A stretch of 64,000 bases of DNA, taken from the NCBI GenBank assembly GCA_023230925.1, contig JALNWK010000005.1, positions 13,111 to 77,110 of the forward strand, written 5' to 3'. The notes beneath the pieces were generated by a model. That model saw nothing but the letters and a program-made list of their open reading frames with translations. It was not told the DNA's origin and did no database searches. The stretch is from Limnochordia bacterium (GTDB lineage: Bacteria > Bacillota > Limnochordia > DUMW01). The position numbers and the translations under genes are program-made. This document shows, in pieces, positions 21,616 through 61,148 of this stretch (its first letter is position 1; each line of letters starts with the position of its first letter).

Positions 21616-22524
21616 CTAATCCCTTGTGGAGCTTAAGACAGCAGCCAAATCTAACGCCAGCTCCTCAATCTCTCTTAATTTCGTGGTTAGCACTTGGCGT
21701 TCCTGTTCTTTAAGAACGATTCTTGGACCCTGATCCAACTGGTGGAAGTACCGCCCAGCTTCATCTAAGGCCTCATTTATCTTCGAGATAACGCTTGCCT
21801 GTTCACTGGCAAGGCGTGGGTTTTGCTCCTGAAGTCGGGGCTGTCTAAACTTTTCAACGGGTCGCACCCGACGAATCGCCTCCATGGGCGTTAGCTTTCT
21901 GTTTTCAATGAGGAGTCTGGATGCCTTTTCTAGATCGCTGCGCGCTAGTTGCTGCTCTTCGGCAAGATCAAGCAGTTGATCCTGGAGTTGATCCTTTTTT
22001 AGACGTCTGGCTGTTCTTTTTGCCACGGCTAGATGCGACAAAGTCAGTACACTAGTTCCTCCCTGGAAGTTATTCACAATTGCCCGCTGATGCCGTTCAC
22101 TCGCCTCCAAGATAAGTAGCCAGTTTAGCATAGTGGTGCGGGGAATGCCTATCTTTTCCGCCAAGGCGTTCTTGGAAAGCCCAGTCTCATTGAGATACTG
22201 CATAATACAGACAGCTCGTTCCAAGGGATCCAGCTCACTTCGCTGCTCGTTTTCAACCAGTTGAAAACGGGTCGCATCAATAGTCTGATCCGCGATAATA
22301 CATTCAATGTACTCAAATCCTAGCAATTTACAGGCTTGAAATCGTCTTTCGCCGGCGATAAGACGATACATATCCCCCTTTAATGGCCTTACTGTGATCG
22401 GATGTAACAGACCCACCTCGGCGATAGAATCAGCTAGGGTCTTGATGCCCTCCTGACTTGCCCTTCTACGTATCTGTCTTGGGGGAATTTCGATCATCTT
22501 AATGGGTACACTCATCACTTTCAT
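21616..22524 (-). CDS. ParB/Srx-fold ParB-like protein (ParB N-terminal domain with GERRxxA box, plus HTH)
   Basis: LIAGERRFQACKLLG has the arginine-rich ParB/CTPase box. An HTH is predicted at LSKNALAEKIGIPRTTMLNWL. No parA gene is adjacent. Confidence 0.7.
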   Translation of the reverse strand: MKVMSVPIKMIEIPPRQIRRRASQEGIKTLADSIAEVGLLHPITVRPLKGDMYRLIAGERRFQACKLLGFEYIECIIADQTIDATRFQLVENEQRSELDPLERAVCIMQYLNETGLSKNALAEKIGIPRTTMLNWLLILEASERHQRAIVNNFQGGTSVLTLSHLAVAKRTARRLKKDQLQDQLLDLAEEQQLARSDLEKASRLLIENRKLTPMEAIRRVRPVEKFRQPRLQEQNPRLASEQASVISKINEALDEAGRYFHQLDQGPRIVLKEQERQVLTTKLREIEELALDLAAVLSSTRD

Positions 22525-22617: not shown

Positions 22618-23439
22618 TCAAATCTCGTTAGAGCCTTTTAGCCTTCCTAGGATTCTTTGCCACCAAGGGGGCTTTACACCAAACCTCGGCAGGGGAAGGG
22701 GATCTTCAACCTTGACTTCTCGCCCCGCAAGCACTGCCGAGGGATTATCCTCCAAGAGTGCCTTCAAATAATGCGGTTCAATTCGCCCTTGGAGCTCCTG
22801 CTTCACTTGTCCATAACATACTCCCCGATGTCCTGACTTACGATGCATGTCCGAGGCAATAACATGAACCATTTTGGCTTCAAGTAGGGACCAGGCCACT
22901 TCCCTCACCCGTGTCCCGAATACCCCAAGCAGGCTGCCTGCATTAACTTGAAGCAATGCCCCCTGCTCCACTAGCCAATGCAAGAACTCCGGTTGATGAT
23001 ACACCACCGCGTTCCGCTCGGGATGGGCAATGATAGGTATTACTCCTTTAACTAGGACTCGGAATAGGACCTCCTCGACACAGGGCGGAATCTGATTCAA
23101 CGGCAACTCTAATAGCAAATAAACCCCGGTACCTGCAAGGGTCAACGGAGTAACGTCATTGATATTGAGCAGACCGCTATCAAACTCCACTTCAAAGCCT
23201 AAATGAAGGGATATTCCCAGACCATTACCCGCCGCTTGCTTAGTTAGTTCTGCAAAGGACAACTGCGCAGCGTGAATATAGCTTTCCCACTCATCTTTCA
23301 TCAGGAAATGGGGAGTTGCAATCGCGCTAGCAATACCCGCTTCCTCTGCTGTGCGAAGCATTGCCACGGCTTCTTCCATACTATCCGCACCATCATCAAG
23401 GCCCGGAAGAACATGCGTATGAATATCAACTACAACCAT
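22618..23439 (-). CDS. PHP-family Mn-dependent protein-tyrosine phosphatase (CpsB/YwqE type)
   Basis: MVVVDIHTHVLPGLDDGA...ATPHF are the PHP motifs. ATGA overlap with the BY-kinase gene. Confidence 0.85.
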   Translation of the reverse strand: MVVVDIHTHVLPGLDDGADSMEEAVAMLRTAEEAGIASAIATPHFLMKDEWESYIHAAQLSFAELTKQAAGNGLGISLHLGFEVEFDSGLLNINDVTPLTLAGTGVYLLLELPLNQIPPCVEEVLFRVLVKGVIPIIAHPERNAVVYHQPEFLHWLVEQGALLQVNAGSLLGVFGTRVREVAWSLLEAKMVHVIASDMHRKSGHRGVCYGQVKQELQGRIEPHYLKALLEDNPSAVLAGREVKVEDPLPLPRFGVKPPWWQRILGRLKGSNEI

Positions 23440-24143
23440 CAGGCTTGTTCCTCAGTCTGATCATAGTAGTAATAGTAGTAGTAATAATTCCCCTTACTGA
23501 CCTGAACATTGTTTAAGACCGCACCGATGACGTTGGCTTTGGCGTTGTCCAAGGCTGCCTTGGCATCCTTTGCAGCTTGATACTGGGTATGCCCTGCGTT
23601 TACCACAAGAATGACTCCATCTACCTTTGCGGCGAGTATAACTGCATCGGCCACGGCGATTACCGGAGGACTGTCAACTAAAACGATATCCGCCCTCCCC
23701 TTTAGTTCATCAAGTAGGTGTTCCATCCCCGCTGAACCAACAAGCTCCGATGGATTAGGAGGAACTGGTCCTGAATTCAGTAGCGAAAGACCCGGGACAT
23801 CGGTCTTCTGGATAGCCTCATCCACAGACATCTCACCCAAGAGAACGGTGGTTATGCCCACCCGGTTATGCCCTCCACAGATACGATGCAAGGTTGGTTT
23901 GCGCATATCACACCCGACAATAATTGTCTTCTTGCCACTTTGGGCCATTACTACCCCAAGATTGTGAAGGGTCGTCGACTTTCCTTCCTCGGGACCTGCG
24001 CTGGTAATAAGGAGCGTCTTTAACTCCCGATCGATGCCCGCAAACTGAATGTTACTTCTCAGCATACGATAGGCTTCGGCTACCGGCGATTTTGGATCTA
24101 GGTTTGTGATAGCACCACTGGCTCGCTTGTCCAAGCTTCTCAC
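23439..24143 (-). CDS. Cytoplasmic BY-kinase (CapB/YwqD/CpsD type) with C-terminal poly-tyrosine tail
   Basis: Walker A GPEEGKST, Walker A' VGCDMRKP, Walker B VLVDSPP. The C-terminus is YYYYYYYYYDQTEEQA. Confidence 0.9.
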   Translation of the reverse strand: MRSLDKRASGAITNLDPKSPVAEAYRMLRSNIQFAGIDRELKTLLITSAGPEEGKSTTLHNLGVVMAQSGKKTIIVGCDMRKPTLHRICGGHNRVGITTVLLGEMSVDEAIQKTDVPGLSLLNSGPVPPNPSELVGSAGMEHLLDELKGRADIVLVDSPPVIAVADAVILAAKVDGVILVVNAGHTQYQAAKDAKAALDNAKANVIGAVLNNVQVSKGNYYYYYYYYDQTEEQA

Positions 24144-24155
24144 TTCCCGACTCTA

Positions 24156-25613
24156 TCAGATACTACGTTTTGCAGAGCCACTTTTGGGGCTCATTCGTTT
24201 CCTTTTGCGTTTTCGTGGTCTATTGGAATCATCAAAGTTAGGAATCATCCCCAGTACAGGCAATCCCAACAGTTCCTCTACCTCTTCAGCGGTCTTGATT
24301 GTGGTATCAATATACTCTAGGAAGAAGGCTAAACCACAACCAACAAACAGACCCAGAAACCCTGATATAGCCAGGTTCAGTTTCTTTCTTGGCTTGATCG
24401 CATGCTGAGGCACCACCGCTTTATCCACGATCTGCACGTTAGCTGATTTCATGGCTTCGGTGATCCGGATCTCCTCATACTTTGTCAGAAGGAGAGTGTA
24501 CAACTCCTCGGTTACGCTAAGGTTTCGCGTTAGCCTTTGTACTTCCATTTCTGTACTGGGTAGGCCTCCCATAGCCTGCTGCTTGTCCTCCACCAGATCT
24601 TGTAGAGTACTCAACCTAGCCTCAAGAGCAATGACCTCAATTTGCCAGGCAATCAGATCCTGTAGAATACTCTGGTACACTGGGTTTGTCGCCCGGCTTT
24701 CGCTATCAACGACATCTTGAAGGGCGACAGCCATCTGCCGTTTCACCTCATCGATTTGTGCCTCAACAGCTATCACCTGCGGATGAACACCTGTATATGT
24801 TTGTTTCAACGCTGCAAGCTGCACCTCTAAGCGTCCGAGCTCGGCCCGGTGTTCCATTAGGAGCGGATTATCAGTGACCGACCGGGAGGCAATCAGGGTC
24901 TGATCTTGCTGTGTTAACTGCTCCTCTAGTTTAGACATTCGAGTTTTTGCCTCACTAATCTGCACCATCGTCTCGGCCATCATTTTGTCTAGCGCGCTCA
25001 ACTCTGAAACCAATGACGCGCTCTCCTGTAGGGGCGCAATTACCTTATGCTCAGTCCGGTACCTATTTAGCGCCTCCTCCGCGGCCAGTAGATCCTGCTG
25101 TACGATGGTCAGCTGTTCTTCAATAAAGACCCTTGCGTTTCTTGCCTCCTCTTGATTGGCCAGTTGATTCAACTCAATGAAGGCCTCAACTACAGTATTT
25201 GCCACCTCAGCGGCGAACTTAGGATCCGTGGACTGAACACTAATCCGAATCGTATCTGTCCCTTGTACAGGTAGCACACTAATACCTTGCTTAAAACCCA
25301 GAAACTCAGAGGAATGGGGGTCATCTTCTAATCCGAGCTTCGATGCCGCAAACTGAGCCAAATGACGGCTTTTTAGAATCTCGACGTAGTTTTGCACAGG
25401 GTTCTTCCCTGATAACGCCCCCGTATCGAAAAAGGGAATCTCGAGGCTGCTAGTCGGATCACGGATCATAATCGTCGTAGAAGCTTCGTAGACCGGCTCT
25501 GTAAGTTCACTGGCAACATAACTGCTGATGAGCGCGGTCAGGAGCAAAACGATGATGATCTCCTTGCGCCTGACTATGATTCGCCAGTACTCCATGATTT
25601 CCATGCTTTCCAT
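24156..25613 (-). CDS. Wzz/PCP-family polysaccharide co-polymerase with extended coiled-coil periplasmic domain (BY-kinase transmembrane modulator)
   Basis: N-terminal TM IIIVLLLTALISSYVAS is followed by a Wzz-like motif region, a long coiled coil, a C-terminal TM and a polybasic tail RPRKRKRKR. Confidence 0.8.
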   Translation of the reverse strand: MESMEIMEYWRIIVRRKEIIIVLLLTALISSYVASELTEPVYEASTTIMIRDPTSSLEIPFFDTGALSGKNPVQNYVEILKSRHLAQFAASKLGLEDDPHSSEFLGFKQGISVLPVQGTDTIRISVQSTDPKFAAEVANTVVEAFIELNQLANQEEARNARVFIEEQLTIVQQDLLAAEEALNRYRTEHKVIAPLQESASLVSELSALDKMMAETMVQISEAKTRMSKLEEQLTQQDQTLIASRSVTDNPLLMEHRAELGRLEVQLAALKQTYTGVHPQVIAVEAQIDEVKRQMAVALQDVVDSESRATNPVYQSILQDLIAWQIEVIALEARLSTLQDLVEDKQQAMGGLPSTEMEVQRLTRNLSVTEELYTLLLTKYEEIRITEAMKSANVQIVDKAVVPQHAIKPRKKLNLAISGFLGLFVGCGLAFFLEYIDTTIKTAEEVEELLGLPVLGMIPNFDDSNRPRKRKRKRMSPKSGSAKRSI

Positions 25614-25627: not shown

Positions 25628-28600
25628 CTACCACCCAGTAACCAGATCCTTAAACAACTTAACCCCTGTGAGGAACTGAAAGATGGTATTCCAATCTGGG
25701 GATGTCGTTTCGGGTACATAGATAATGTCGCCACCAACCACAATTGGATTTGCTTTCTTTACATCCCCTTCGAATAACAGCTTATCCCCCAAGGACGCCT
25801 CTCCAACCTGGGAAACATCCGCCCCCCGGTAAATCCCCACCGATTGCAGGGCTGCCCGCTCTGTTGGACCGCCAGCCATAGCAATTACATCCATAACACG
25901 GGTATCGGGGCCGATTGAGTACATTCCCGGTTGCTTAACCTGTCCCAATACAACCACTTCCAGTTTTGCTTCGGGGACAAAAATCACATCTCCCTCTTGG
26001 ATCGGATAATTCGTGTTAAGCGCCAGCTGATGGGTCAGAGCATGAAAATCTGCCTGCAAGATAACATCCTGGTCGTCTTCAGTTCTGGTAATGGTGATTT
26101 GGTCTAGACTTGCCCCGGGCAACACTCCTCCAGCCAAACTGATTGCATCCAAGAGCCGAGACCCTTGCGGAAGAAGATAGGCACCTGGACTACGTACTTG
26201 TCCAAGAACCATCACATTACGAGCCCTTGGTACATAGACAATGTCACCGGGGGATATCCGGACATCATCACCCTGCAGCTTGTATAGCGAAAACAAGTCA
26301 AAGACATGGGTTACTGCTCCATCTGCCCTGCTTAGGGTAATGCTTTGGGTATTAGCCCGATCGGTAACCCCTCCCGCTAGGGCAATAATGTCAACTAACC
26401 GATTGTTAGTTCCTAAGGGATAGGCCCCAGGATTGCGTACTTCCCCGAAGACTAAGACCTGTTGTGTTAGCATCGGCACATACACAGCACAGCCTGGACT
26501 AAGTAGGGGACTATCCATTAATCCTGAGGCGATACGGGTTAGACTGTAGATTTCCTCTCCCGATTCGTCCCCGACTATGATGCTGTCTCCGTCAGCATCA
26601 TCCCGCAATCCCCCCGCCTTTGCTACCATATCCAATAGTGAGTCCCCGGTTAAAAGCGTATACTGACCCGGGCGATTCACAGCACCCAATACCGATACCT
26701 GTCTGCGCACGAGGGGGATATAAACCAGATCGCCAGGAAAGACCTCTACGTTGTCGCTGCTATCTGGCTCGTGCAACACTGTTTGCAGATCAACCACAAT
26801 TCTACGAGGTTCCATGGCTGCTTTGCGGACTACAATTGCCTCCCCAAGCTCATCTTGGGCCAGTCCACCAGCCTTGGTAATCAGATTAAACAACCGTTCC
26901 CCTTCTTTGACAGGATACGTTCCCGGGTGACTTACCTCACCGAGAATAAGTGCATCATGTTCCCCTTCGGGCACAATAAGCACATCTCCGCCCTGCACCT
27001 CAATGTTGGAAGTCAAGTCATATTGCTGGCGTACCGCATTCAAATCCATCGTATATATGCGTATCTCGTCTTCGTCTCGGACTAAGGTGACCTTGGAAGG
27101 ATCTGCCTTGGGCGTAATGTCCTTGGCCATGGCTAACACATCTAGGACTCTGGCGCCGGCATCTACTATATAGTAGCCCGGGTTGTTCACTTGACCAAGA
27201 ACTAATACCTGACGATTAGCACGGGGAATGAATACAATATCACCACCGACCAGTAACGGATTGTCCTGATTGACATCACCCATCATCGCCTTAGCATCCA
27301 AGACTTCAGTCCGATCGTCGCGGCTTAAGGACACTCTCTCGAGATCAGCTTGAACAGTGGGCCCTTGGGCCTTTCCAATAAGGTCAAGGAGTGTATCTCC
27401 CGGCTCAGTAAGGTACGTACCTGGACGATTGACTTCACCTAAAATCAATACCCGCCTATTGGCCCTCGGTAGATATAGTACATCGCCGGCCAAAATGTGG
27501 ACAAACCCATCGACGTCTTGGCTAGTTAGCTTGCCAAGATCAGCCGGTATTCTGCAATAACTGCCATCGGCACTCTTACGCAGGATGTAGGCCCCAGAAA
27601 GATCGGCATCTTCCGTTGCCCCGCCTGCCTTACTTAAGAGTTCCAGCGGACCTAGACCCTTCTGATAGCCAAAGTGTCCCGGTCGAGTGACCTCACCTAA
27701 CACGAGGACTTCCCGTTCGTCCCGGGGTACGTAGATCATATCCTGGGGCTTAAGCCCTAGATTGAAGTCGCTATTTGTGAGGGCCTCCACAAAATCTATT
27801 TCCTCTTGCTTACCGTCCGCTCGAATGATTCGCACTGCGTCTTGACGGGCGTTAGCATTCAATCCACCCGCCAATCCAATGATATCCAACAGTCGATCAT
27901 GTCCTGCCGCAATCGTATACCGACCAGGAATTCGTACTTCCCCCAAAACAACAACTTCCCTGTTTTCCTTCGGTATAAAGAGGACATCTCCGCCATGAAT
28001 AACAAGGTTCTCCTTTGGATCACCTTGATAAACCAAGGCCGCTAAGTCAATCGGCAATGGATCTGATTCATTTCCAAACCGACTCAACCGCCCCTGCATA
28101 CTGGCGGTTTGCTCATTTAGACCACCGGCCATGGCAATCAGATCAAGAACACGACTGCCCGGCTCGGGAACGTAATATCCCGGATTTCTTACCTCCCCAA
28201 CAACCAACACACCCTGCCTAGTAGCAGGTACATACACTACCTCACCGCCCACGAGCCTGTTCTGCGGTTGATTCTCCCCGTCTAGACCCACCACTAGGCT
28301 CCGCTCATCTACGTGCACATTGATCTTTGTCGCATCAGCTTTACTGGTTAGTCCTCCCGCGAGGGCAAGAAGCTGCATGATACTCAAACCCTTTTCATCA
28401 ACCTGGAAGACACCAGGATTACGTACCTCACCAAGCACCCATATATGACGTTCCACCCTAGGCACATAAATAACATCCCCACCTCGAACTACATCGGGTG
28501 TGACAAGATCAAATTGGGTCTGAATCGGGGAATACCCTTCGTCAGTTAGCCGACTTATGGTCACCTCTTCGGTATCCGCAAAAAGCGTGAATCCCCCAGC

Positions 28601-31600
28601 CCTTGCCACCACCTCTAACGCAGAAGTAGCACCTTTGATCGCATAGGCACCGGGACTCCTCACTTCACCGAAAATCAACACTTCAGTGGCCATCTGGGGC
28701 ACAACTATGGTCTCCCCGCCACTTAGCATAATGTTCTGAGCAATATTGGGTTGCTGTTCTACTGCTTCGAGATCTATTTTCTCTAACTCAGCACCCTCAG
28801 GACGTGAGAGCATAAGACCACTGGCGTTCGCCTCTTTGGCAAGCCCACCAGCCAGACCTAACACATCAAGAATTGATGCTGATGACTCAAGAGTATAGCG
28901 TCCTGGTCTTGCTACAGCACCAAGGACTGTAACCTGGCGCACCCGCTTGGGAACAAATATGACATCCCCGCCCACTAAGGGTATATTACTACTACCGTCA
29001 TCTTGTAGTAGCGTTTGGCAATTAATCTCTTTGCTTACAAAACTCCCGTTTTCGATTCTCCGTAGGGCAACAGCTTCCACATCAGCAAAGGACGAAAATC
29101 CCTTTGCCTGACCGATAATTTCTAGCAGACCCTGACCCGGCTCTAGGTTATATACACCCGGGGCATTAACCTCGCCAAAGACTACCACCTGGCGTTCTTC
29201 TGCTTTCTCTATGTAGATTACGTCCCCACCGGAAAGAATTGGGTTTAATGGTCCCTTGGGATCTGCCTTTGCCTCAAGGAGGCTGTATCTTTGAGGCTGA
29301 TCCCTATCTTCGCTTGTTAACCAGATTAGGTCAATATCCGCCTCCGGTGTAGTCCCTTCGGCCATAGCAAGTGCGTCAAGGAGTCGAGTAGGTCCAATCA
29401 CCGTATACGTTCCCGGTCGTGTCACTTCCCCAAGCACCGTAATATCCCGTCTAGCCCGAGGAACATAGACCACACCGCCCGGCTCTATAATTGGGCTCAA
29501 CAGTCCATCTGGAGCATCGGACATGGTCTTTTGGACATTGAAGACTCTACGTGTTCCGTCCTTAAGGAGAACATGCACATTTTCCGCATCACCATGTTCA
29601 GCCACGCCGCCGGACATGGCTAGGGCATCGAGTAACCGAATGTCTTCTTGGATATCGAACACACCGGGGCTTTGAACTTCCCCTAACACGACCACTTGCT
29701 TTTGTGCCTTTGGCACATAGATGACGTCCCTAGGTTCTATCGGAAGGTTATCCTCTGGCTTAGTATTGCTCAGAATCGCTGAAACATCTATCGTACACAG
29801 CACTGGCCCTGTGGCTGTCTGCCGAGTCAGACTGACTTCCCCAAGATTTGCCCTTTCCGTAGGCCCTCCCGCTAAGGCGATCATATCCAATAATGTTGCC
29901 TCGGGTAGAATCTCGTATCCCCCTGGCACCCGTATTTCGCCTAAAATGACCACTTGTCGTTCCACCTTGGGAACAATAAGTACCTCACCGCCCTCTAACA
30001 GGCGGTTCGTCTCTGAAAATGGCCGCGCTAACACTTGCTCAAGGTCTATCTCAATCAGGCGAACATCATCGCCGACTCTTAAGCTTAGGCTTGCCGCCGA
30101 CAGGTCCGCTTGAGGAGTAGGACCGCCACCTAGAGCCAAAACGTCTAGTACCGTTAATTCCTTCGCAATCTTGAAGTACCCTGGATTACGCACTTCTCCA
30201 AGGAGCAACACACCCCGGTTGTCTTCGGGGACATACACAACATCCCCTGGCCTAACTAGTACCTCATCACTAACTACCTGACGTAGGGCGTCTCCTAGAT
30301 CCAACTCCTTAATCAGCACTGCATCACTCGTCTGCCGGGTGATGCTGATCTTCGCCTTGTCAGCAGTAACATCCAAACCACCCGCCAACGCCAGGAGTTC
30401 ATAAATGGTGACCCCTTCTTCAACTACATATGTACCAGGATTCCTTACCTCACCTAAGACGATGGCGTGACGTTTTGTCTCAGGAACATAAATGATATCC
30501 CCACCCGACAAATGTGGATTATCCGCTTTCGGCCGTGCAGATATGGCATCTTTCACGTCAACGACCACCGGCTCCGCCTGATCCTTAGAACTAATACTGA
30601 CTTTGGTGGCGTCACCCAACTCGGTAATACCACCAGCGATAGCAATTGCATCCGTAAGCCGACTTCCGGGTCTGAGATCATAGGAGCCTGGACGCTGAAC
30701 CTGACCAAAGACAATAACCTCCCGCTCAGCTTTAGGAACAAAGACAACATCGCCACCGAAAATAGGGATATCCGGCTTGTTCTGATCCTTTTGCAAAATC
30801 GCATCCAGATCGACAACAATGCGCTCTTGTTGCCCTCCTACTTTACGAGTAATACTTATCTGATCTATCAAAGCACCCTCTGTAGTATTTCCTGCCATCG
30901 CAATCAGCTCGAGCAGACTTAAATCACCCATTACCTGGAAGGCTCCGGGATTATTTACCTGACCCAAAATGACTACTTGCTCTGCCTTAGGAACATACAT
31001 AATGTCCCCTGCACATATCTCGATATTGTTGGCCCCACCACCGCTTCTGCGTATTACTTCTAGATCAACTATATGCTGGTCGTCTCCTCTTTGTAACACC
31101 ACCTGACGAAGATCAGCTTCCTTGGAATATCCGCCAGCAAGGCTGAGTAAATCAAGAATCCTGGTACCTTCTCGCACTGTGTAAGCGCCAGGTACATTAA
31201 CCTCACCAAGGACCAGGGCTTTCCTCTCCTTTGGCACAAATACAATATCGCCTGACTCCAGACTAAACTGATCCCGTCTGCCCTCACTGACGATCTGGGC
31301 AAAATCAACGATCTCCAATTGGCCGTCGCGAGTGATCTTAATTTCGCTGATCGACGCCTCCGGGGTCAGTCCTCCGGCCCGAGCAAGCAGCTCTGAGATG
31401 GTTGACTCGGGCTTCAGATCATATAGACCGGGAACCTGTACCTCACCAAATAGCCTTACCTGAATCGTTCTAAACTCCTTAACTACAACGGTTACCCGGG
31501 GACTAACAATTAACTCCTTCATTCGCTCCATCAGTTCATTGGCCAACTGAGAGCTAGACTTTCCCGATGCAACAATATCCCCGGTCAGGGGTGGTACACC

Positions 31601-31771
31601 AATCTTACCATCCGGTCTTATTTGCACAATAGTTAGTAAATCCGGATGACCCCAAACCGAAATCTGCAACACATCGCCGGGCGCTAACAAGTACTCATCG
31701 GCAGCACCATGGGCAGTTGCTGCTAACACACAAACAACGATAATAAGCAAACAATTTACCCTTTTTCTCAT
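25628..31771 (-). CDS. Giant (2047 aa) Wza/KpsD-like polysaccharide export protein with N-terminal Poly_export domain and about 22-23 tandem SLBB domains
   Basis: Signal peptide present. The Poly_export-like N-terminus reads LLAPGDVLQISVWGHPDL...IGVPPLTGDIVASGKSSSQLANEL. The unit V.VLGEV..PG.Y......LLD.IA.AGG then repeats about 23 times at roughly 80-90 aa spacing. Confidence 0.85.
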   Translation of the reverse strand: MRKRVNCLLIIVVCVLAATAHGAADEYLLAPGDVLQISVWGHPDLLTIVQIRPDGKIGVPPLTGDIVASGKSSSQLANELMERMKELIVSPRVTVVVKEFRTIQVRLFGEVQVPGLYDLKPESTISELLARAGGLTPEASISEIKITRDGQLEIVDFAQIVSEGRRDQFSLESGDIVFVPKERKALVLGEVNVPGAYTVREGTRILDLLSLAGGYSKEADLRQVVLQRGDDQHIVDLEVIRRSGGGANNIEICAGDIMYVPKAEQVVILGQVNNPGAFQVMGDLSLLELIAMAGNTTEGALIDQISITRKVGGQQERIVVDLDAILQKDQNKPDIPIFGGDVVFVPKAEREVIVFGQVQRPGSYDLRPGSRLTDAIAIAGGITELGDATKVSISSKDQAEPVVVDVKDAISARPKADNPHLSGGDIIYVPETKRHAIVLGEVRNPGTYVVEEGVTIYELLALAGGLDVTADKAKISITRQTSDAVLIKELDLGDALRQVVSDEVLVRPGDVVYVPEDNRGVLLLGEVRNPGYFKIAKELTVLDVLALGGGPTPQADLSAASLSLRVGDDVRLIEIDLEQVLARPFSETNRLLEGGEVLIVPKVERQVVILGEIRVPGGYEILPEATLLDMIALAGGPTERANLGEVSLTRQTATGPVLCTIDVSAILSNTKPEDNLPIEPRDVIYVPKAQKQVVVLGEVQSPGVFDIQEDIRLLDALAMSGGVAEHGDAENVHVLLKDGTRRVFNVQKTMSDAPDGLLSPIIEPGGVVYVPRARRDITVLGEVTRPGTYTVIGPTRLLDALAMAEGTTPEADIDLIWLTSEDRDQPQRYSLLEAKADPKGPLNPILSGGDVIYIEKAEERQVVVFGEVNAPGVYNLEPGQGLLEIIGQAKGFSSFADVEAVALRRIENGSFVSKEINCQTLLQDDGSSNIPLVGGDVIFVPKRVRQVTVLGAVARPGRYTLESSASILDVLGLAGGLAKEANASGLMLSRPEGAELEKIDLEAVEQQPNIAQNIMLSGGETIVVPQMATEVLIFGEVRSPGAYAIKGATSALEVVARAGGFTLFADTEEVTISRLTDEGYSPIQTQFDLVTPDVVRGGDVIYVPRVERHIWVLGEVRNPGVFQVDEKGLSIMQLLALAGGLTSKADATKINVHVDERSLVVGLDGENQPQNRLVGGEVVYVPATRQGVLVVGEVRNPGYYVPEPGSRVLDLIAMAGGLNEQTASMQGRLSRFGNESDPLPIDLAALVYQGDPKENLVIHGGDVLFIPKENREVVVLGEVRIPGRYTIAAGHDRLLDIIGLAGGLNANARQDAVRIIRADGKQEEIDFVEALTNSDFNLGLKPQDMIYVPRDEREVLVLGEVTRPGHFGYQKGLGPLELLSKAGGATEDADLSGAYILRKSADGSYCRIPADLGKLTSQDVDGFVHILAGDVLYLPRANRRVLILGEVNRPGTYLTEPGDTLLDLIGKAQGPTVQADLERVSLSRDDRTEVLDAKAMMGDVNQDNPLLVGGDIVFIPRANRQVLVLGQVNNPGYYIVDAGARVLDVLAMAKDITPKADPSKVTLVRDEDEIRIYTMDLNAVRQQYDLTSNIEVQGGDVLIVPEGEHDALILGEVSHPGTYPVKEGERLFNLITKAGGLAQDELGEAIVVRKAAMEPRRIVVDLQTVLHEPDSSDNVEVFPGDLVYIPLVRRQVSVLGAVNRPGQYTLLTGDSLLDMVAKAGGLRDDADGDSIIVGDESGEEIYSLTRIASGLMDSPLLSPGCAVYVPMLTQQVLVFGEVRNPGAYPLGTNNRLVDIIALAGGVTDRANTQSITLSRADGAVTHVFDLFSLYKLQGDDVRISPGDIVYVPRARNVMVLGQVRSPGAYLLPQGSRLLDAISLAGGVLPGASLDQITITRTEDDQDVILQADFHALTHQLALNTNYPIQEGDVIFVPEAKLEVVVLGQVKQPGMYSIGPDTRVMDVIAMAGGPTERAALQSVGIYRGADVSQVGEASLGDKLLFEGDVKKANPIVVGGDIIYVPETTSPDWNTIFQFLTGVKLFKDLVTGW
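25700..31500 (-). repeat. Protein-level tandem array of SLBB-like domains; the array period is about 250-270 nt, nucleotide sequences are divergent, and coordinates are approximate
   Basis: The [VI].[VIL][LF]G.V..PG.[YF] motif recurs 23 times in the translated ORF. Confidence 0.7.
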
Positions 31772-31924: not shown

Positions 31925-31966
31925 ACCAGACCAAAAGCTGGGAGCCGCTAGGAAACACGGCTCCCC
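31925..31966 (-). terminator. Intrinsic terminator after the 31993..32919 gene
   Basis: GGGAGCCG-CTAGGAAACA-CGGCTCCC, followed on the minus strand by AGCTTTTGG. Confidence 0.5.
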
Positions 31967-31992: not shown

Positions 31993-32919
31993 TTAATGGA
32001 ACACAATGCCATTGATATGTAGTTCCGCTACGGTTTCTCCGAGAATAACCGTCCCTACAGGCATGACCACCTCTGCACCCTTGACCACAAACGCCAGACC
32101 AGCGCCTATGGGGGAACCAAGTACAACTAATCCTGCTGTACCTAGTAGCGCAGCCAAACCCACAGCATCCTGACCCTTTTCCACCTTCGCCGATGGGATA
32201 AGATCTACTAGACTACGGTCGATGGCCTTAACGCTTCCTAGTTCCAAGACAACCTGGGCATCCCTTCCTAGCTGCTTGGCCTGGGTCACTTGCTTAACGA
32301 CTCCTGTTCCTAGCAGTCCCTTAGGTATTACTAGGACATCATCGACAAAAACGTTTTCGTTGATCCGGAACTTAATTTCATCGCCGTCTCGATTCTTGGT
32401 AGAATCTATCCCGTCCATCAATTCTAGTTGCACCACCGTTCCAGCGGGGACAACAACGGACTGCATCTGTATATCCGGGAACAGGGCCAACATGCCTTTG
32501 ATGCGGCCATCAAAGGGCCCGGTGAGTACCTTCCCGTAATAGGCGTTTTCCATAAACTCTAGCTGTGTTACCAAGGAACTATGCTCCCGGACCTCGTTGA
32601 AGGTTAACCATTCCACAGCATTCAATGTCATGCTCAAATTACCAGCGACTTCGTCACTAGGCGCAAGCATGTTCCAGATCTTGTCAACTCTTGGTACTAG
32701 ACTTGCTGTTGAACCACCACTTACACCAAAAAGATCACTTTCTAGCTTACTTACCCTCTGAAACGGTGTAAGATCCTTGGCACTGTAATCCTTCCCATAC
32801 ACCATAGTCTCAATCAATGCAATCCTGTCCAACACCCCTTGGCCATAGACGGGAACGCTGGCACATACTAGAACAATACAGAGAACAGAAATAGCGAACC
32901 CTCTCAATTTAACGGTCAT
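31993..32919 (-). CDS. Secreted hypothetical protein
   Basis: Start MTVKLRGFAISVLCIVLVCASVPVYG with RBS GGGGGG. The mature region is a mixed beta-rich sequence. No family recognised. Confidence 0.45.
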   Translation of the reverse strand: MTVKLRGFAISVLCIVLVCASVPVYGQGVLDRIALIETMVYGKDYSAKDLTPFQRVSKLESDLFGVSGGSTASLVPRVDKIWNMLAPSDEVAGNLSMTLNAVEWLTFNEVREHSSLVTQLEFMENAYYGKVLTGPFDGRIKGMLALFPDIQMQSVVVPAGTVVQLELMDGIDSTKNRDGDEIKFRINENVFVDDVLVIPKGLLGTGVVKQVTQAKQLGRDAQVVLELGSVKAIDRSLVDLIPSAKVEKGQDAVGLAALLGTAGLVVLGSPIGAGLAFVVKGAEVVMPVGTVILGETVAELHINGIVFH

Positions 32920-32955
32920 GCTTGTCCCCCCCACAGGAAATATTAAAACATTTAC

Positions 32956-34515
32956 TTAAAACCTAATAGTAAACTCCGCACTCGCCCGATTGGACTTCGA
33001 GGCCACATCCCCAGAAAAGTCAACCATCTCATATCCTAGGTGGAGCAAAGCATTGCCTCCCACCTCGAACCCAAGGCCGAATGACGTTGTCAAAGTGTTT
33101 ACATTTCCCGACTGCAGACTAATATCTGCTAGCAACTTACGGTCGTTACCCAGCAAATACTCTAGGCCGGCCGTTGTTGTCTGCATGGTACTTAGGACCT
33201 CCAGATCATTATCGCGTTCCCCTTCAAACAACAGACCCGCTTTTACCTTGCCTTGAGGAATCAGAACGTCAAGACCCACTGAGGTTTTCGAACGAGAAGG
33301 TCCCAGTTTCTTATTAAGAAGACTATCAAGATCAACGTACTCATAACCGGCATGTAAAACGCCTACATTATCCACCGTGTAGTTTACGCCTACCGATGTG
33401 GTCTTACTAATTGCCGTTTCTCCATCATAGGCGTTTTCGTTATGCCCAAGCTCAGTTATGAAACGTAGATCACCCATTTTCAACTCCATCTGGTACAAGG
33501 CCAAGTCACCTTCCTGGGTAATCTCACTACTCAAATGACTGTATCCATCGAGAACTCGATTGTACCAGCCAGCAAGCTCCATTATCTCATTGGTGAAAAG
33601 TGCGCCAATGCGAAATGAGCTTCCGCTATCATCGGATGCCGCCGATTGAGAAAACTCTCCAATCAACTCAAGGCCACCGCCTAGTACCCAGCTACCCCCA
33701 AGACTAGTTAGAAACTTCGCTTTTTCCTGATCCCAGACTCCTGAAGGTGCTTTCAAGGCGTAACTGGCGTCAAGCATAATCTGATCAGTCAATCGAAAGG
33801 AGCCATCTAACGCGGCCATATAGTCGTTTTGATCTCTTTGTTTTGACTGGGCAACTAACAACTGCGAATTCCAGAAATTCGTCTGCACACTACCGGGCAA
33901 CCACTTATTGACTTCTGACCAAGGACCGTCCCCTAAGGGAATCATACTCAATACGAGGGGACTGGCTGGACCATTCAGGACATCATTCAGAGGAAACACC
34001 ACTCCTTTGTGCCCTTCTTCCCCAGCCAATAGCTGCGAAATCCTATACAAAACACGACCGTCTTGCCCATTACCTCCGAAAACGTAAAACGTATTCGCGG
34101 TTTCGCCTATGTCAACGGCGCGCCAGTTCTGCAACGAATAGACTGCCAACTCCGTATCCAGACCAAGCAACTTTAGTTCAGGCCGAAACTCCTTCTCTAA
34201 CCGTAGCAATAAACCAGCACTAGCCCGATTCAGCGCCTGGATCTGAAATCCTTGCTCCTCCCAGGAATCAATGTTTAGACTACTGAAAATCCTAGAAACA
34301 AGCAACGCCATCTCGTATCGGCTTACGGTCTGACCATCTTGAAACCCGCTGGAATAGACCTCATCGATTAGGCCATAGCCGGCCAGTTCTCTAAACGCGG
34401 TATATGACCAATGCTCCTTCGGCACATCGCTCAAGGAATCTAGGGCGGACACGGGCCCGGCAATTAATAGGATACAAATGAGAATAACCAATGGATACAC
34501 ATTACGTCCTCGCAT
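32956..34515 (-). CDS. OmpM-like outer-membrane protein: N-terminal SLH domain plus C-terminal beta-barrel
   Basis: Signal peptide, then SLH motif DVPKEHWSYTAFRELAGYGLIDE...GFQDGQTVSRYEMALLVSRI. The C-terminus ends ...AEFTIRF, a terminal aromatic typical of OMP barrels. RBS AAGGAGGG. Confidence 0.75.
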   Translation of the reverse strand: MRGRNVYPLVILICILLIAGPVSALDSLSDVPKEHWSYTAFRELAGYGLIDEVYSSGFQDGQTVSRYEMALLVSRIFSSLNIDSWEEQGFQIQALNRASAGLLLRLEKEFRPELKLLGLDTELAVYSLQNWRAVDIGETANTFYVFGGNGQDGRVLYRISQLLAGEEGHKGVVFPLNDVLNGPASPLVLSMIPLGDGPWSEVNKWLPGSVQTNFWNSQLLVAQSKQRDQNDYMAALDGSFRLTDQIMLDASYALKAPSGVWDQEKAKFLTSLGGSWVLGGGLELIGEFSQSAASDDSGSSFRIGALFTNEIMELAGWYNRVLDGYSHLSSEITQEGDLALYQMELKMGDLRFITELGHNENAYDGETAISKTTSVGVNYTVDNVGVLHAGYEYVDLDSLLNKKLGPSRSKTSVGLDVLIPQGKVKAGLLFEGERDNDLEVLSTMQTTTAGLEYLLGNDRKLLADISLQSGNVNTLTTSFGLGFEVGGNALLHLGYEMVDFSGDVASKSNRASAEFTIRF

Positions 34516-34607
34516 CTTCCGCCCTCCTTTAGCAGTACTCACTAGGTTGTGATATTCGCCATGCTTATCTTGTTTTCCTTGTTCGATACTATGATCACAG
34601 ACTGGAT

Positions 34608-35222: not shown

Positions 35223-38200
35223 TTAGAAGCTGAACCCAACTGTCGCAAGGGCTTCCCATACCTGATAATCTTCATCAACGTTGGTATCCCAGCACAGCTC
35301 AGCATAGTTACTGCTCAGCGAAATGTTAAAACCGTTACCGATTGGGTAAACATACTTCATGTCAGCAGTTCGAGCGCTAAAGCGATCTGATTTCTTGGTA
35401 TCAAGCCCAGCACTCTGCTTTGCAGCTAGACTTAAGCTACCACCGTAAAGCTGACGATCAGCCGTAAGTGAAAGCTTACTCTCTGGAGCAAGACTAGCAT
35501 TGGTAAGCAAATCAGTACTCTGACCGTACTCAACACCAACACCCACCTTGGCATTGAGCAATTCTCCAGTATAATCAAGTCCGATACTGGCAGTCCCTAC
35601 CTTATCCGTTACAGTAGAGCTAAGCAAGTCCTCCGTTGTGGTAACACGATACCCAGCAGCAAACATCAAGCCATCACCGGCATCAATGACCGACCTCAAT
35701 CCACCTACGGTCTTGCGGTTCTCCTGCCACTTATCCAGTTCGGTCCACTTGTTATCTACGATTTCCCTCGTAGTCCACTGATACGTTGCATCAAGACTGA
35801 CTCCGGGACCTACTGGCATCTTATCGATATTCAGTGCCACTTGATAGTGCTGCCTATCATCGACACCAAGCTCCTTCAAATTAGCCACATCTAAATCAAG
35901 TACTACAGGCAAATCGAAGGGCGCTATCTTTCTGGAAACAGATAGTTTGCCGATAGAGTGATCCAGCTCGTCAGTGGTGGAGAAATCTCTGGTGAAGTAT
36001 GCACCATACAGGTCAAAGTCGAGTATATTCCGCTTAGCATCCAAAAGATTCTCTATCTTGGAGCTTTCACCACCGTCATCCTTGGTCGTGATATCCCTGC
36101 GCTCATAGCCAAGCTCGGCTCCAAAAACGTCGACGTTCTTCAAAGTGGTAATATTAGATAGTTCGTAATGGCCTTTCGTCACACTAGTATCTAGTCTACC
36201 AACTTGTTGAGTAAGCTTTGCACCAAACACAGGAGCCGAGGCCGTTAAGACATACTTCCTTTGATCCGGTAAAAGATCCCCGTCTTTGCTCTTGAAGTCC
36301 TTCGCATATTTCGGAGCAAATCCCTCAGCAACGTTTCCATAGTCGAAACCAATATCTATAATCCCAACGTTGGTCCCAAGTTTGACGTCGGTTGCGGTAA
36401 CGCTATCTGCCTTGTACGAATCTACCGTATACTTTAGGTCATAGTCAATATTACCAATCGAGCCTACAGTACCAATCTGGCCCACCCGGTCACGAGCATA
36501 TGCTGGTGCCCCGGCGCCAACATGGGGGTCTGTGAACCAACTTACCAGTCGAGTATACAGTTTCCCAGTTGCAACATCAAATTCACCGTAAACAGCAGCT
36601 AGATACTCACCCACATTAAGCCGTGAGAAGTACACATCAGCCCTTACAGTATCGCTAAAGGCGAGTTTGGAACTAACACCAAACATCTTCAGTGGCTCGA
36701 TCTTCTTCTTGTTAATGGTGTATTTGTCAAAGGAACCAGCGATCTCGTCATGGCTCAGTGAGCCAAAGTAAGCTAGTCTAAGCACATCGGGAGTTTCCAC
36801 CCTGACACTCATATCCGACAGACGCACGTTAAAGTCCGGATCGCTGCCGAAGAAGTTGGTCACCGTTGCCAAGCTTCCCTTAACCAGTACGTTATCACTA
36901 GGATAAGCCTCAAAACCAAAGGTTAACTTGTGTGCGAATCTGCTCACAGCAGGATCGTACAGCTTCGGATTGGAGGTCTTTGTATCCCTTACATGAGGAT
37001 CTTTGTATAGCTTTGCAGCATCCCCTGCCACGACAGCCCTGTTAACTAACTCTAGGCTAGTATCACCAAAGAACCTGACCTTCCCAAACTTAGCCGCGAA
37101 CTCCTCAAAGGAACCAGATAGAGCATCGTGGTCCTTGCGCAGATCTTGCTGCTGTGCTGCCAACTTTCCGGTGGCATCCTCAAGATCTCCCACGGCCACT
37201 CGCAGTTCCTGTTGTCCTTGCTCGACCTTTGCCAACCGGCTACTCAGGAGTTCCTGGGTGCTCTCAATGTTCTTAACCTCAGTATCCAGCGCCACCACGA
37301 AGGAGCGTAGATCATCTAATCCTGTAGCACCGGTCTGCAACTCGGCCTTGAGTTCACTGATCGTGGCCTCGATTCGATCGGCACGTTTGTTGGTGCGTTC
37401 TATCCTAAATAGGAGATCACCCATCTTTGAGTCTAGCACTGCATTACGAGACTCAAATAACGAAAGCATACCCTTTATGCCATCAAATTCTTCCTGCAAT
37501 TCTGCCTCAGTCAGATCCAGTTTCGCTTCGATTCGCTCAACCTGTTTGTTTGCTCGTCCAATTCTAAACAAAAGATCGCTTAACTTCGAATCGATCACGG
37601 CATTCTTCGAGTCCAAAACAGAAATTGCACTCTTTACAGCAACGATCTCGTCTTCTAGTTCCGCATTGGTGGCATCAAGCTGCTTCATGATGGAAGCTGT
37701 TTTCAGATCGATTAGTGCCTTTAGACCGTCCACATCCTTAGACATGGCCGCCAGTTGCACGTCAAAAAGACCCATTTGGTCATTGAGTAGGTCTGTGACC
37801 TGCTGTAGCTTGGTGGCTACTTCGGATGCTTCAAGTGCGGTCTGCTCGGCGGTCTTACTGATCTCCAGTCCTTCCTTTGCCACAGTTAGTGCTTCAGCGG
37901 CGGAAACCTGTGCCTCTTGCCCCAACTTGACTGCCTTCTCGCCAAGGGCCTTGGCCTCCTCGGAATATGCAACAGCCTCAGCAGATCTGGTTAGGGCCGC
38001 ATCACTATTCTTAACAGCGGTCTGCGCCATTTCTGCAACTTCAGGGCCGGTAGTATCGGTGCTTTGTTGAACCTTCAATGCGATTGCTTCGGCCCGACTA
38101 GCGGTTTCTGCTGTTGCATCGCTTAGTGCCTTAAGTTCCTCCAGCACTTTGGCAATTTCAGCACTCTGGTCCTTAGCCTCAGCAGCTGTGGAGTAGGCCC

Positions 38201-39095: not shown

Positions 39096-39432
39096 GTGAT
39101 AGTACCCTCCCTCATAAGCATGTACGACTTGATTACGTAGAAATCTCCCTATGTATGTCAATGCAGCCATAGGGTGCAGGTTAATTCTGATCTATACTTG
39201 ACAGCCCGGCCGGTAGTTGCCCGGCGACTAACAAGAGCACCCCCCCTTTCGGCAATATACCTGCCGGACGCTAGAATAGAGGTAGCATGGATACAACATC
39301 CGACACTTCAATATCACATTCGCTAGTAACCTGCAAAATCCTTCTTGAAAATCAACATATCTTCCAGATAGTTGTGTCCATCGCCGTTGTGTTGGATAAT
39401 GTAGCAAATCTTATCAAAACCATGGAGACCCA

Positions 39433-61119: not shown

Positions 61120-61148
61120 TCGCAAAAACACAGAACAACCCCCTACGC

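What the first reader, a model, noticed from the sequence alone, without database searches (positions are those of the whole stretch)
25628..31771. 2047-aa Wza/KpsD-like polysaccharide export protein with about 23 tandem SLBB domains
Canonical outer-membrane polysaccharide export proteins (Wza, KpsD) have one Poly_export domain followed by one or two SLBB domains. This ORF has a clear Poly_export N-terminus followed by the unit V.VLGEV..PG.Y...G..LLD.IA.AGG repeated about 23 times with little nucleotide-level identity, so it is ancient divergent repeats rather than a recent expansion. The C-terminus (SPDWNTIFQFLTGVKLFKDLVTGW) is a short amphipathic segment that may or may not be equivalent to the Wza C-terminal membrane helix. 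If each SLBB ring stacks as in Wza, this would form a very long periplasmic conduit, far longer than a normal periplasm. It may be a secreted fibre-like scaffold or an unusually long export channel spanning a thick envelope layer.
Basis: partly seen in the sequence, partly recalled or inferred. Interest (0 to 1): 0.85.

Follow-up and report, generated by a model that had tools for sequence, protein, structure and literature searches.

The report
Giant 23-ring polysaccharide export channel
This is an intact Wza-type polysaccharide export gene from a two-membraned Limnochordia bacterium with 23 stacked-domain repeats instead of the usual one or two, and its length appears matched to an equally stretched outer-membrane tether encoded next door, pointing to a very wide gap between cell wall and outer membrane.

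Summary
Window 25628-31771 (-) is one intact 2047-aa ORF with a signal peptide, one Poly_export domain, 23 contiguous SLBB units (period 83.4 +/- 2.5 aa, 21-44% identical) and a conserved 25-aa C-terminal tail predicted as a helix.

It is a Wza-family outer-membrane polysaccharide export (OPX) protein. It heads an operon with a Wzz/GNVR co-polymerase, a BY-kinase and a CpsB phosphatase, inside the LPS/outer-membrane gene cluster of a Limnochordia MAG. The same 2047-aa protein occurs in three independent assemblies, so it is not a misassembly.

It is an extreme member of a family with 4-28 SLBB units. Only four 50%-identity clusters in 1.84 billion proteins reach 20 or more units. The literature lists up to 14.

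New here: across 19 syntenic loci, SLBB number tracks the coiled-coil rod length of a neighbouring SlpA/OmpM-like tether (about 23 aa of rod, or 3.5 nm, per SLBB). The co-polymerase and the tether barrel do not scale. The window pairs 23 SLBB with a 615-aa rod (about 90 nm).

Best reading: a roughly 70-nm stacked-ring conduit spanning an unusually wide periplasm. Stacking, true length and the outer-membrane crossing step are inferred, not shown, and the correlation leans heavily on this one lineage.

The parts
25628..31771 (-). OPX gene: 2047-aa Wza-family polysaccharide export protein (whole ORF including the stop codon)
31706..31771 (-). Sec-type signal peptide (aa 1-22, MRKRVNCLLIIVVCVLAATAHG|AADEY). 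There is no Cys at the cleavage site, so unlike Wza it is not an obvious lipoprotein
   Evidence: read from the sequence; no signal-peptide predictor was run
31481..31705 (-). Poly_export (D1) domain, aa 23-97. It lacks the roughly 11-aa Wza loop QYRSSSDTGNW that carries the gating tyrosine
   Evidence: loop function from PMC12819527
25706..31465 (-). Array of 23 contiguous SLBB (beta-grasp) units, aa 103-2022, period 83.4 aa
25631..25705 (-). Conserved C-terminal tail, aa 2023-2047 (motif PET..PDWN.IF.FL.GVK.F). Predicted as a 20-residue helix and a candidate membrane-inserting or docking element
24156..25613 (-). Polysaccharide co-polymerase (Wzz + GNVR, 485 aa), starting 14 nt after the OPX stop
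23439..24143 (-). Separate BY-kinase ATPase subunit (234 aa, CpsD-like)
22618..23439 (-). CpsB/CapC PHP-type tyrosine phosphatase (273 aa)
21616..22524 (-). ParB_N + HTH protein that always flanks the operon; role unknown
31940..31965 (-). Terminator-like hairpin between the 313-aa gene and the OPX start. It suggests that the OPX begins its own transcription unit
31993..32934 (-). Conserved 313-aa secreted protein with a glycine-rich hydrophobic C-terminus and no known family. It is always immediately upstream of the OPX
32956..34542 (-). Short SLH-domain + beta-barrel outer-membrane protein (528 aa, ends FTIRF). It is syntenic with the OPX and is a possible porin partner
35223..39170 (-). SlpA/OmpM-like OM-to-peptidoglycan tether (1315 aa): an SLH domain, a helical rod of about 615 aa and a beta-barrel of about 590 aa (ends VGFSF)

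Best explanation
The ORF encodes the outer-membrane polysaccharide export (OPX, Wza-family) component of a Wzx/Wzy-type pathway in an LPS-containing, two-membraned Limnochordia bacterium. It is exported by a Sec signal peptide. Its single Poly_export domain docks onto the periplasmic domain of the co-transcribed co-polymerase (Wzz/GNVR + BY-kinase, reset by the CpsB phosphatase). By analogy with the Wza octamer, each of the 24 domains (D1 + 23 SLBB) forms one ring of a stacked tube. At about 3.1 nm per ring this gives a sealed conduit of about 70-75 nm that carries the nascent polymer from the cell wall and inner-membrane region to the outer membrane. The conduit is this long because the lineage holds its outer membrane far from the peptidoglycan. 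The adjacent SlpA/OmpM-like tether has a helical rod of about 615 aa (about 90 nm if it is a continuous coiled coil), against about 50 aa in Veillonella OmpM1 and 28 nm in Deinococcus SlpA. SLBB units act as modular spacers, and copy number changes by tandem duplication of single units. At the outer membrane the polymer leaves either through a pore made of the conserved 20-25-aa C-terminal helices or through the syntenic SLH-barrel protein. Shown here: the domain architecture, the fold, the operon, the envelope context, the copy-number spectrum, the duplication mechanism and the co-variation with tether length. Inferred: ring stacking, physical length, periplasm width, the identity of the exported polymer and the outer-membrane crossing step.
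For: Architecture and fold. The N-terminal model has pLDDT 88. It aligns with Wza 2J58 across D1-D3 over 266 columns (TM 0.50) and with the two-domain Wza 7XFD at 2.9 A rmsd.

Operon: PCP, BY-kinase and CpsB are spaced by 14, 12 and -1 nt.

Diderm LPS context: LpxC/A/I/B, MsbA, LptA-like, LptB and LptFG are in the window. Limnochordia are experimentally diderm (PMC11456536).

Tether: its SLH domain matches OmpM1 8BYS (E 7e-15) and SlpA 7ZGX (E 7e-10). Its helical rod matches SMC and helix-rich models.

Synteny: the order tether - RuvX - short barrel - ~310-aa gene - OPX - PCP - kinase - CpsB is conserved in more than 20 loci.

Co-variation over 19 loci: SLBB count against rod length gives Spearman 0.83, a slope of 23 aa (3.5 nm) per SLBB and an intercept near zero. 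Phylogenetically independent contrasts give r = 0.82. The PCP (471-505 aa) and the tether barrel (rho 0.18) do not scale.

Calibration: the SlpA coiled coil of 28-29 nm equals the OM-PG distance of 30 +/- 3 nm measured by cryo-ET (PMC9388160). WzaB D1+D2 project about 62 A (PMC12819527).

Duplication mechanism: units 17-21 of orthologue P0002 are a five-fold amplification of window unit 17, and all other units are one-to-one.

Tail: it is conserved in length and motif across the family.
Against: No multimer model or coordinates were available, so ring stacking and the rise per unit are borrowed from Wza and WzaB. pTM of the monomer models is only 0.45-0.51, and rmsd to Wza over three domains is 6.6 A, so inter-domain geometry is uncertain.

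The correlation leans on the window lineage. Without it the contrasts give r = 0.50, p = 0.04 and a slope of only about 10 aa per SLBB. Within the 12-17 range rod length is nearly flat.

Rod length was called with a crude composition rule. The rod contains Gly/Pro breaks and could fold back.

A second SLH-barrel protein with almost no stalk (528 aa) is encoded alongside. If its SLH domain binds peptidoglycan, it would argue for a narrow gap, at least locally.

Loci with 4-8 SLBB could not be paired with tethers.

Pfam Wza_C does not hit the tail, and the alignment to Wza D4 is not significant on its own.

No glycosyltransferase, Wzx or Wzy gene lies next to the operon in this window.
Confidence: 0.6

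Rival explanations
1. The protein is an OPX, but the SLBB array is not a straight tube of stacked rings. It may fold back, coil, or form a multi-layer vestibule. Unit number would then relate to something other than distance, such as polymer binding capacity, chain-length control or storage of nascent polymer. The match with tether length would be a lineage coincidence.
For: Monomer models give low pTM (0.45-0.51) and imperfect superposition on Wza D1-D3 (rmsd 6.6 A). Rod length is almost flat between 12 and 17 SLBB, and the correlation is weak without the window lineage. A short-stalk SLH-barrel is also present. Other lineages with 19-28 units (L005, L007, L089) show no tether nearby.
Against: Units follow one another without linkers at a constant 83-aa period. 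D1-SLBB1 superposes on a solved two-domain Wza at 2.9 A. The slope of 3.5 nm per unit and the near-zero intercept are what stacking predicts. Unit order is conserved one-to-one between orthologues.
Confidence: 0.2
2. The protein is a non-channel, beads-on-a-string periplasmic or surface scaffold. Its SLBB (soluble-ligand-binding beta-grasp) domains would bind polysaccharide or cell-wall polymer along a monomeric rail or fibre rather than enclosing it. This includes the first reader's secreted-fibre idea.
For: The soluble Class-3 OPX WzaB is a monomer unless lipid-anchored (PMC12819527), and this protein has no lipobox. SLBB domains occur in non-channel proteins such as ComEA, which appears among the hits.
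Against: A canonical Poly_export D1 scores above the curated cut-off, and the gene is in an operon with PCP, BY-kinase and phosphatase. The C-terminal hydrophobic or amphipathic tail is conserved across the family. There is no secretion-system, sortase or adhesin signature. The gene sits inside the outer-membrane biogenesis cluster.
Confidence: 0.12
3. The ORF is an artefact: a misassembled repeat, fused genes or a decaying pseudogene.
For: None found. Long repeat arrays are in general prone to assembly error.
Against: There are no nucleotide-level repeats to confuse an assembler. An identical 2047-aa protein occurs in three independent MAGs. The orthologue keeps one-to-one unit order at 49-90% identity per unit. 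Every unit keeps the SLBB signature.
Confidence: 0.01

Closest known systems
E. coli K30 Wza (PDB 2J58), Class-1 OPX
   Same: It shares the Poly_export D1 followed by SLBB beta-grasp domains. Sequence hits reach E 1e-16 to 1e-24, and Wza is the top Foldseek hit. It partners with a PCP/BY-kinase. After the last SLBB strand there is a 'W-N....(S/T)GV' segment in the position where the Wza D4 helix starts.
   Different: It has 23 SLBB domains instead of 2. It has no lipobox. It lacks the D1 loop carrying the gating Tyr. Its tail is 25 aa against the 35-aa Wza_C and does not hit Pfam PF18412. The kinase is a separate polypeptide and the phosphatase is CpsB-type, which is the Gram-positive style.
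Myxococcus xanthus WzaB/WzaX (PDB 9N9A), Class-3 OPX with a Wzp beta-barrel porin
   Same: It has no Pfam Wza_C or GfcC domain and a short D1 beta1-beta2 loop without the tyrosine ring. A beta-barrel outer-membrane protein gene is conserved next to the OPX gene (PMC12819527, PMC9603273).
   Different: WzaB has one SLBB, projects only about 6 nm and is lipid-anchored. Here there are 23 SLBB, a Sec-I signal peptide and a conserved C-terminal helix. The neighbouring barrel is an SLH-domain OmpM-like protein, not a PgaA-like 18-stranded Wzp.
Multi-SLBB OPX architectures catalogued by Saidi et al. 2022 (PMC9603273)
   Same: Poly_export-SLBB(n) architecture. The catalogue lists n = 1-14 with Wza_C and n = 1-7 without.
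   Different: n = 23 here, and up to 27-28 in relatives, which exceeds the published range. No functional or structural rationale for high n was given in that work. The link to tether length is new.
Deinococcus radiodurans SlpA (PDB 7ZGX) and Veillonella parvula OmpM1 (PDB 8BYS), the OM-peptidoglycan connectors
   Same: The neighbouring 1315-aa protein has the same SLH - coiled coil - beta-barrel plan and matches both SLH domains. In Deinococcus the coil length equals the measured OM-PG distance (PMC9388160).
   Different: The rod here is about 615 aa (about 90 nm), against 28 nm in SlpA and about 50 aa in OmpM1 (PMC10628300). That is the longest seen in this comparison.
Length-matching of envelope-spanning machines to periplasm width (Lpp length against the flagellar rod and stress sensing in enterobacteria)
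   Same: The concept is the same: a tether sets the inter-membrane distance and trans-envelope machines must fit it. This comparison is recalled from my own knowledge and was not checked here.
   Different: Those cases are engineered changes of a few nanometres in one species. Here it would be natural, modular scaling over tens of nanometres by domain duplication.

Membership tests
OPX (outer-membrane polysaccharide export; Wza/KpsD) superfamily | N-terminal Poly_export (PES) domain, Pfam PF02563 | tested here: met
   68.3 bits against a cut-off of 28, aa 23-97. NCBIfam EpsE, PEP-CTERM export and PRK15078 models match the N-terminus.
OPX superfamily | At least one SLBB domain (PF10531) after Poly_export | tested here: met
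   23 stretches, E 2e-232. The beta-grasp secondary structure is seen in the AlphaFold models.
OPX superfamily | Genomic and functional pairing with a polysaccharide co-polymerase | tested here: met
   A Wzz+GNVR gene starts 14 nt downstream, followed by the BY-kinase and CpsB. The pairing is conserved in all related loci.
OPX superfamily | Octameric ring or channel assembly | not testable with these tools
   Only monomer prediction was available, and no coordinates were returned.
Class-1 OPX (Wza-like) | C-terminal Wza_C domain (PF18412), an OM-spanning amphipathic helix | tested here: not met
   No Pfam hit, even for the isolated tail at E <= 10. The profile-to-Wza alignment places the tail at the start of D4, but with i-E about 5e2. 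The tail is predicted as a helix of about 20 residues with low confidence.
Class-1 OPX (Wza-like) | N-terminal lipoprotein signal (lipobox Cys) | tested here: not met
   The signal peptide ends ..LAATAHG|AADEY, with no Cys at the cleavage site. This is by inspection only.
Class-1 OPX (Wza-like) | D1 loop with the gating tyrosine ring | tested here: not met
   An 11-residue gap lies opposite Wza QYRSSSDTGNW in the HMMER alignment.
Class-2 OPX (KpsD-like) | Caps_synth_GfcC domain (PF06251) | tested here: not met
   It is not among the Pfam hits at E <= 0.01.
Class-3 OPX (WzaB-like) | Only Poly_export + SLBB by Pfam, with a short D1 loop | tested here: met
   However, n = 23 is far outside the published 1-7, and a conserved C-terminal helix is present.
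Class-3 OPX (WzaB-like) | Dedicated PgaA-like (Wzp) beta-barrel porin encoded nearby | tested here: inconclusive
   A conserved barrel gene lies two genes upstream. It carries an SLH domain and gives only faint Porin_4 hits. No similarity to PgaA or Wzp was found.
SlpA/OmpM OM-peptidoglycan tether (for the 1315-aa neighbour) | N-terminal SLH domain, coiled-coil stalk and C-terminal OM beta-barrel | tested here: met
   SLH: Pfam E 3e-10 and PDB matches to OmpM1 (7e-15) and SlpA (7e-10). Rod: helix-rich composition and SMC or helix-rich model hits at aa 441-696. Barrel: inferred from composition, the C-terminal ..VGFSF and homology to the barrels of 20 syntenic tethers. The barrel was not structurally modelled.

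The most novel reading that the evidence does not exclude
In Limnochordia the number of SLBB rings in the polysaccharide export channel is an evolvable modular ruler. Single-unit tandem duplications lengthen the conduit by about 3-3.5 nm per step, in register with the coiled-coil rod of the SlpA/OmpM tether that sets the distance from outer membrane to cell wall. This lineage would then have an OM-peptidoglycan gap of about 70-90 nm, the widest predicted for any bacterium, crossed by a 1.8-MDa proteinaceous tube.
Probability: 0.4. Interest if true: 0.8.

Novelty: new variant of a known kind. Interest (0 to 1): 0.62.

Why it matters
How long polymers cross the periplasm, and how envelope-spanning machines are fitted to the distance between membranes, are open questions. 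The only well-understood OPX proteins reach 6-10 nm.

A natural series of orthologous channels with 9, 10, 12, 13, 14, 15, 17, 23 and 27 rings would be a ready-made test. Each is encoded beside a tether whose rod length can be read from sequence. The series would test the stacked-ring conduit model and the idea that tether length sets periplasm width in deep-branching diderms.

It also predicts an unusual cell-envelope ultrastructure for an abundant but almost uncultured group of anaerobic-digester bacteria. Cryo-ET could check that directly.

If the prediction fails, the finding is still the extreme end of a catalogued architecture and a useful boundary case for OPX classification. The protein is Class-3 by Pfam, yet it carries a conserved C-terminal helix.

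Tried and rejected
1. The conserved ~310-aa neighbour gene was tried as the anchor for the GTDB locus search. The Poly_export domain was used instead.

2. Pfam Wza_C was scanned on the isolated tail at E <= 10 and gave no hit.

3. Hydrophobic-moment analysis of the tails gave only moderate amphipathicity (muH 0.1-0.3, mean hydrophobicity about 0.3), which is not decisive.

4. Foldseek of the C-terminal model hits full-length Wza, but at rmsd of about 19-20 A, so it says nothing about the tail.

5. An attempt to extend the correlation to 4-8 SLBB failed. Those loci are either not syntenic (L016, L023, L055) or are cut upstream (L009, L026, L032).

6. High-copy loci outside the syntenic clade (L005, L007, L089) and L091 have no tether within reach, and the tether in L001 (27 units) is cut by the contig end.

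7. The 724-aa gene between the LptA-like gene and LptB was checked as a possible stretched Lpt bridge. It is an FtsX/MacB-type permease instead.

8. DUF3084 length (382-437 aa) does not scale clearly with SLBB number.

9. One chain forming 3 x 8-membered rings (24 domains) was considered and rejected, because relatives have 13, 14, 16, 18 and 28 domains.

10. The literature on the Limnochordia envelope confirms a diderm wall but gives no periplasm width.

11. Model coordinates are not exposed, so the rise per unit could not be measured.

Full report
**1. Observation**

Window 25628-31771 on the minus strand is a single ATG-initiated ORF of 2047 codons with no internal stop. Pfam gives one Poly_export domain (aa 23-97, 68 bits against a cut-off of 28) and 23 stretches each of SLBB (PF10531, E 2e-232) and SLBB_2 (PF22461). 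NCBIfam models for EpsE, the PEP-CTERM exporter and PRK15078 (Wza) match the N-terminus. The motif G[EQA][VI]..[PG]G occurs exactly 23 times at a spacing of 83.4 +/- 2.5 aa, and the units abut without linkers.

Unit-to-unit identity is 21-44% at the protein level and at most 60% at the nucleotide level. Tandem Repeats Finder sees no array of that period.

**2. Reality of the gene**

The identical 2047-aa protein is deposited from three independent Limnochordia MAGs, auto-annotated 'SLBB domain-containing protein'. A 54%-identical orthologue (P0002, 2362 aa) keeps the units in one-to-one order at 49-90% identity per unit. Misassembly, gene fusion and pseudogenisation are excluded.

**3. Family and fold**

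PDB sequence searches hit Wza chains at E 1e-16 to 1e-24, and the Class-3 OPX WzaB at 1e-19. An AlphaFold model of aa 23-349 (pLDDT 88) has Wza 2W8H/2J58 as top Foldseek hits (E 1e-19, 266 aligned columns covering D1-D3, TM 0.50, rmsd 6.6 A). It superposes on the two-domain Wza 7XFD at 2.9 A. The last three units plus tail (pLDDT 78) again hit Wza first.

Three Wza hallmarks are absent:
- There is no lipobox Cys.
- The D1 loop QYRSSSDTGNW, which carries the gating tyrosine, is missing (its function is from PMC12819527).
- Pfam Wza_C does not hit.

There is no GfcC domain either. By the Pfam-based scheme of Saidi et al. (PMC9603273) the protein is therefore Class 3.

Every family member nevertheless ends 22-34 aa after the last SLBB with a conserved motif, PET.KPDW..IF.F.G(V/L)K.F. 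This tail is predicted as a 20-residue helix at low confidence. HMMER places it opposite Wza '..VSRWNRLINQLLPTISGVRYMTD', the start of the D4 helix, but not significantly. I treat homology of the tail to Wza_C as plausible but unproven.

**4. Context**

All genes in the window are on the minus strand. Downstream of the OPX, at spacings of 14, 12 and -1 nt, come three genes: a Wzz+GNVR co-polymerase, a separate BY-kinase ATPase and a CpsB PHP phosphatase. A ParB-like gene follows. A terminator-like hairpin precedes the OPX start.

Upstream lie, in order:
- a 313-aa secreted protein of no known family;
- a 528-aa protein with an SLH domain and a beta-barrel;
- a RuvX-like gene;
- a 1315-aa protein with an SLH domain, a helical rod of about 615 aa and a large barrel.

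Both SLH domains match Veillonella OmpM1 and Deinococcus SlpA, the two solved connectors between outer membrane and cell wall. Further upstream are DUF3084, LptFG, LptB, MsbA, LpxB/I/A/C and an LptA-like gene. This is the outer-membrane cluster typical of diderm Firmicutes. Limnochordia are diderm by electron microscopy (PMC11456536).

**5. Family survey**

A word-indexed search found 69 long relatives of 1130-2362 aa. An HMM built from the 23 units counts 12-28 units in them. A scan of GTDB species representatives, anchored on the Poly_export domain, returned 80 loci. The window's own species is absent, with a best identity of 54%. Members carrying the characteristic tail have 4, 6, 7, 8, 9, 10, 12, 13, 14, 15, 17, 23 or 27 units.

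A profile search of 1.84 billion representative proteins found 48,879 SLBB proteins. Only four 50%-identity clusters have 20 or more matched stretches (23, 28, 21 and 21), and one cluster member reaches 2563 aa. The published maximum is 14 (PMC9603273). The window protein is thus an extreme, but not unique, member of a continuous series.

Copy number changes by tandem duplication of whole units. P0002 units 17-21 are five copies, 65-79% identical to one another, of the single window unit 17.

**6. The new result: co-variation with the tether**

The gene order tether - RuvX - short barrel - ~310-aa gene - OPX - PCP - kinase - CpsB is conserved in more than 20 loci. I measured the tether rod as the distance from the end of the SLH domain to the last helix-like segment. 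The rule requires no Pro, at most one Gly or aromatic residue, and at least 55% AELKQRMD in 21-residue windows. It is crude.

Over 19 loci with complete genes, the mean rod lengths are:

| SLBB units | Rod length (aa) |
|---|---|
| 9 | about 218 |
| 10 | 236 |
| 12 | 317 |
| 13 | 258 |
| 14 | 317 |
| 15 | 303 |
| 17 | 292 |
| 23 | 615 |

The statistics are Spearman 0.83, Pearson 0.88, a slope of 23.2 aa per SLBB and an intercept of 7 aa. With 0.1485 nm per residue of coiled coil, the slope is 3.5 nm per SLBB. That is close to the value of about 3.1 nm per OPX domain implied by the 62 A projection of the two-domain WzaB (PMC12819527).

Two controls do not scale. The barrel part of the tether gives rho 0.18, and the PCP stays at 471-505 aa. 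Phylogenetically independent contrasts on a PCP tree give r = 0.82 (17 contrasts, p 4e-5).

There are caveats. Without the window lineage the contrasts give r = 0.50, p = 0.04 and a slope of about 10. The 12-17 range is nearly flat. There are perhaps only two or three independent shifts. The result is suggestive, not proven.

**7. Physical reading**

In Deinococcus, the 28-29-nm SlpA coil equals the 30 +/- 3-nm OM-PG distance seen by cryo-ET (PMC9388160). Veillonella OmpM1 has a coil of only about 50 aa (PMC10628300). By the same logic the window tether predicts an OM-PG gap of up to about 90 nm. Twenty-four stacked OPX rings predict about 72-75 nm, and the PCP periplasmic domain would supply the remainder.

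The count against this reading is fourfold. The neighbouring 528-aa SLH-barrel has almost no stalk. The rod could kink. The monomer models have low pTM. No multimer model could be made.

**8. Mechanism proposed**

The protein is exported by Sec. D1 docks on the PCP, which is cycled by the BY-kinase and CpsB. The 24 rings enclose the nascent polymer across the wide gap. The polymer exits either through a bundle of the conserved C-terminal helices or through the syntenic barrel, in the manner of the Class-3 OPX-porin paradigm. The operon in this window lacks glycosyltransferase, Wzx and Wzy genes, so the polymer is unknown. In the unrelated high-copy lineage (L005, L089), biosynthesis genes including Wzy_C follow the PCP, which supports a genuine Wzx/Wzy-type role for such giant OPX proteins.

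**9. Rivals**

- A non-linear or compact SLBB assembly, with unit number unrelated to distance (0.2).
- A non-channel binding scaffold or secreted fibre (0.12).
- An artefact (0.01).

**10. Verdict**

The architecture class is known, so this is a new variant of a known kind. The extreme unit number and the apparent length-matching to an SlpA/OmpM tether are new and directly testable by cryo-ET and multimer modelling. Interest 0.62.

Noticed in passing
window 35223-39170 (-): A 1315-aa SlpA/OmpM-like protein with a helical rod of about 615 aa between its SLH domain and its barrel. The rod is roughly three times the length of the Deinococcus SlpA coil and twelve times the Veillonella OmpM1 stalk. 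On its own it predicts an exceptionally wide OM-peptidoglycan gap.
   Followed up: yes
window 44741-50545 (-): A 1934-aa TPR-containing protein sits immediately upstream of, and overlaps, LptB (43893-44741) and LptFG. It is absent from this position in related loci L003, L008 and L090. Its function is unknown.
   Followed up: partly
window 31993-32934 (-) and 32956-34542 (-): A 313-aa secreted protein with a glycine-zipper-like hydrophobic C-terminus has no Pfam, NCBIfam or PDB match. A 528-aa SLH + beta-barrel protein ends in F.I[KR]F. In every syntenic locus both lie immediately upstream of the OPX, so they may be parts of the translocon.
   Followed up: partly
window 21616-22524 (-): A ParB_N + HTH gene always flanks the OPX/PCP/kinase/CpsB operon. 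It lies downstream in most loci and upstream in L002 and L006. It may be a regulator; this was not explored.
   Followed up: no
window 61149-63323 (-) with 60400-61155 (-) and 63345-63983 (-): A 724-aa FtsX/MacB-type permease with a large coiled-coil extracytoplasmic domain is paired with an ABC ATPase. It lies directly after an LptA/LptD_N-like gene in the lipid A cluster. It has no family assignment.
   Followed up: partly
window 41464-42777 (-): A DUF3084 coiled-coil protein (437 aa, with SMC-like helical hits) is always encoded just upstream of the long tether in related loci. In the window, TrkH/TrkA genes are inserted between the two.
   Followed up: no
L001:5761-12849 (P0002): The sister-lineage orthologue has a five-fold tandem amplification of one SLBB unit, with 65-79% identity among the copies. 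It is a snapshot of how the array grows. Its tether gene is cut by the contig end, so the matching prediction could not be tested.
   Followed up: partly
P0140 and P0156; L005 and L089 (P0004, P0019); P0214: Other, unrelated lineages have independently built OPX-like proteins with 19-28 or more SLBB units. A high-GC lineage does so by block duplications and reaches 2563 aa. A two-unit-module type ends in a transmembrane-like tail. None of their contigs showed a nearby SLH tether.
   Followed up: partly
window 1-64000: All of the roughly 50 ORFs of at least 150 aa that look like genes are on the minus strand, and GC skew is uniformly negative. This fits a single replichore with the strong strand bias typical of Firmicutes. 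The species is not among the GTDB r232 representatives.
   Followed up: no
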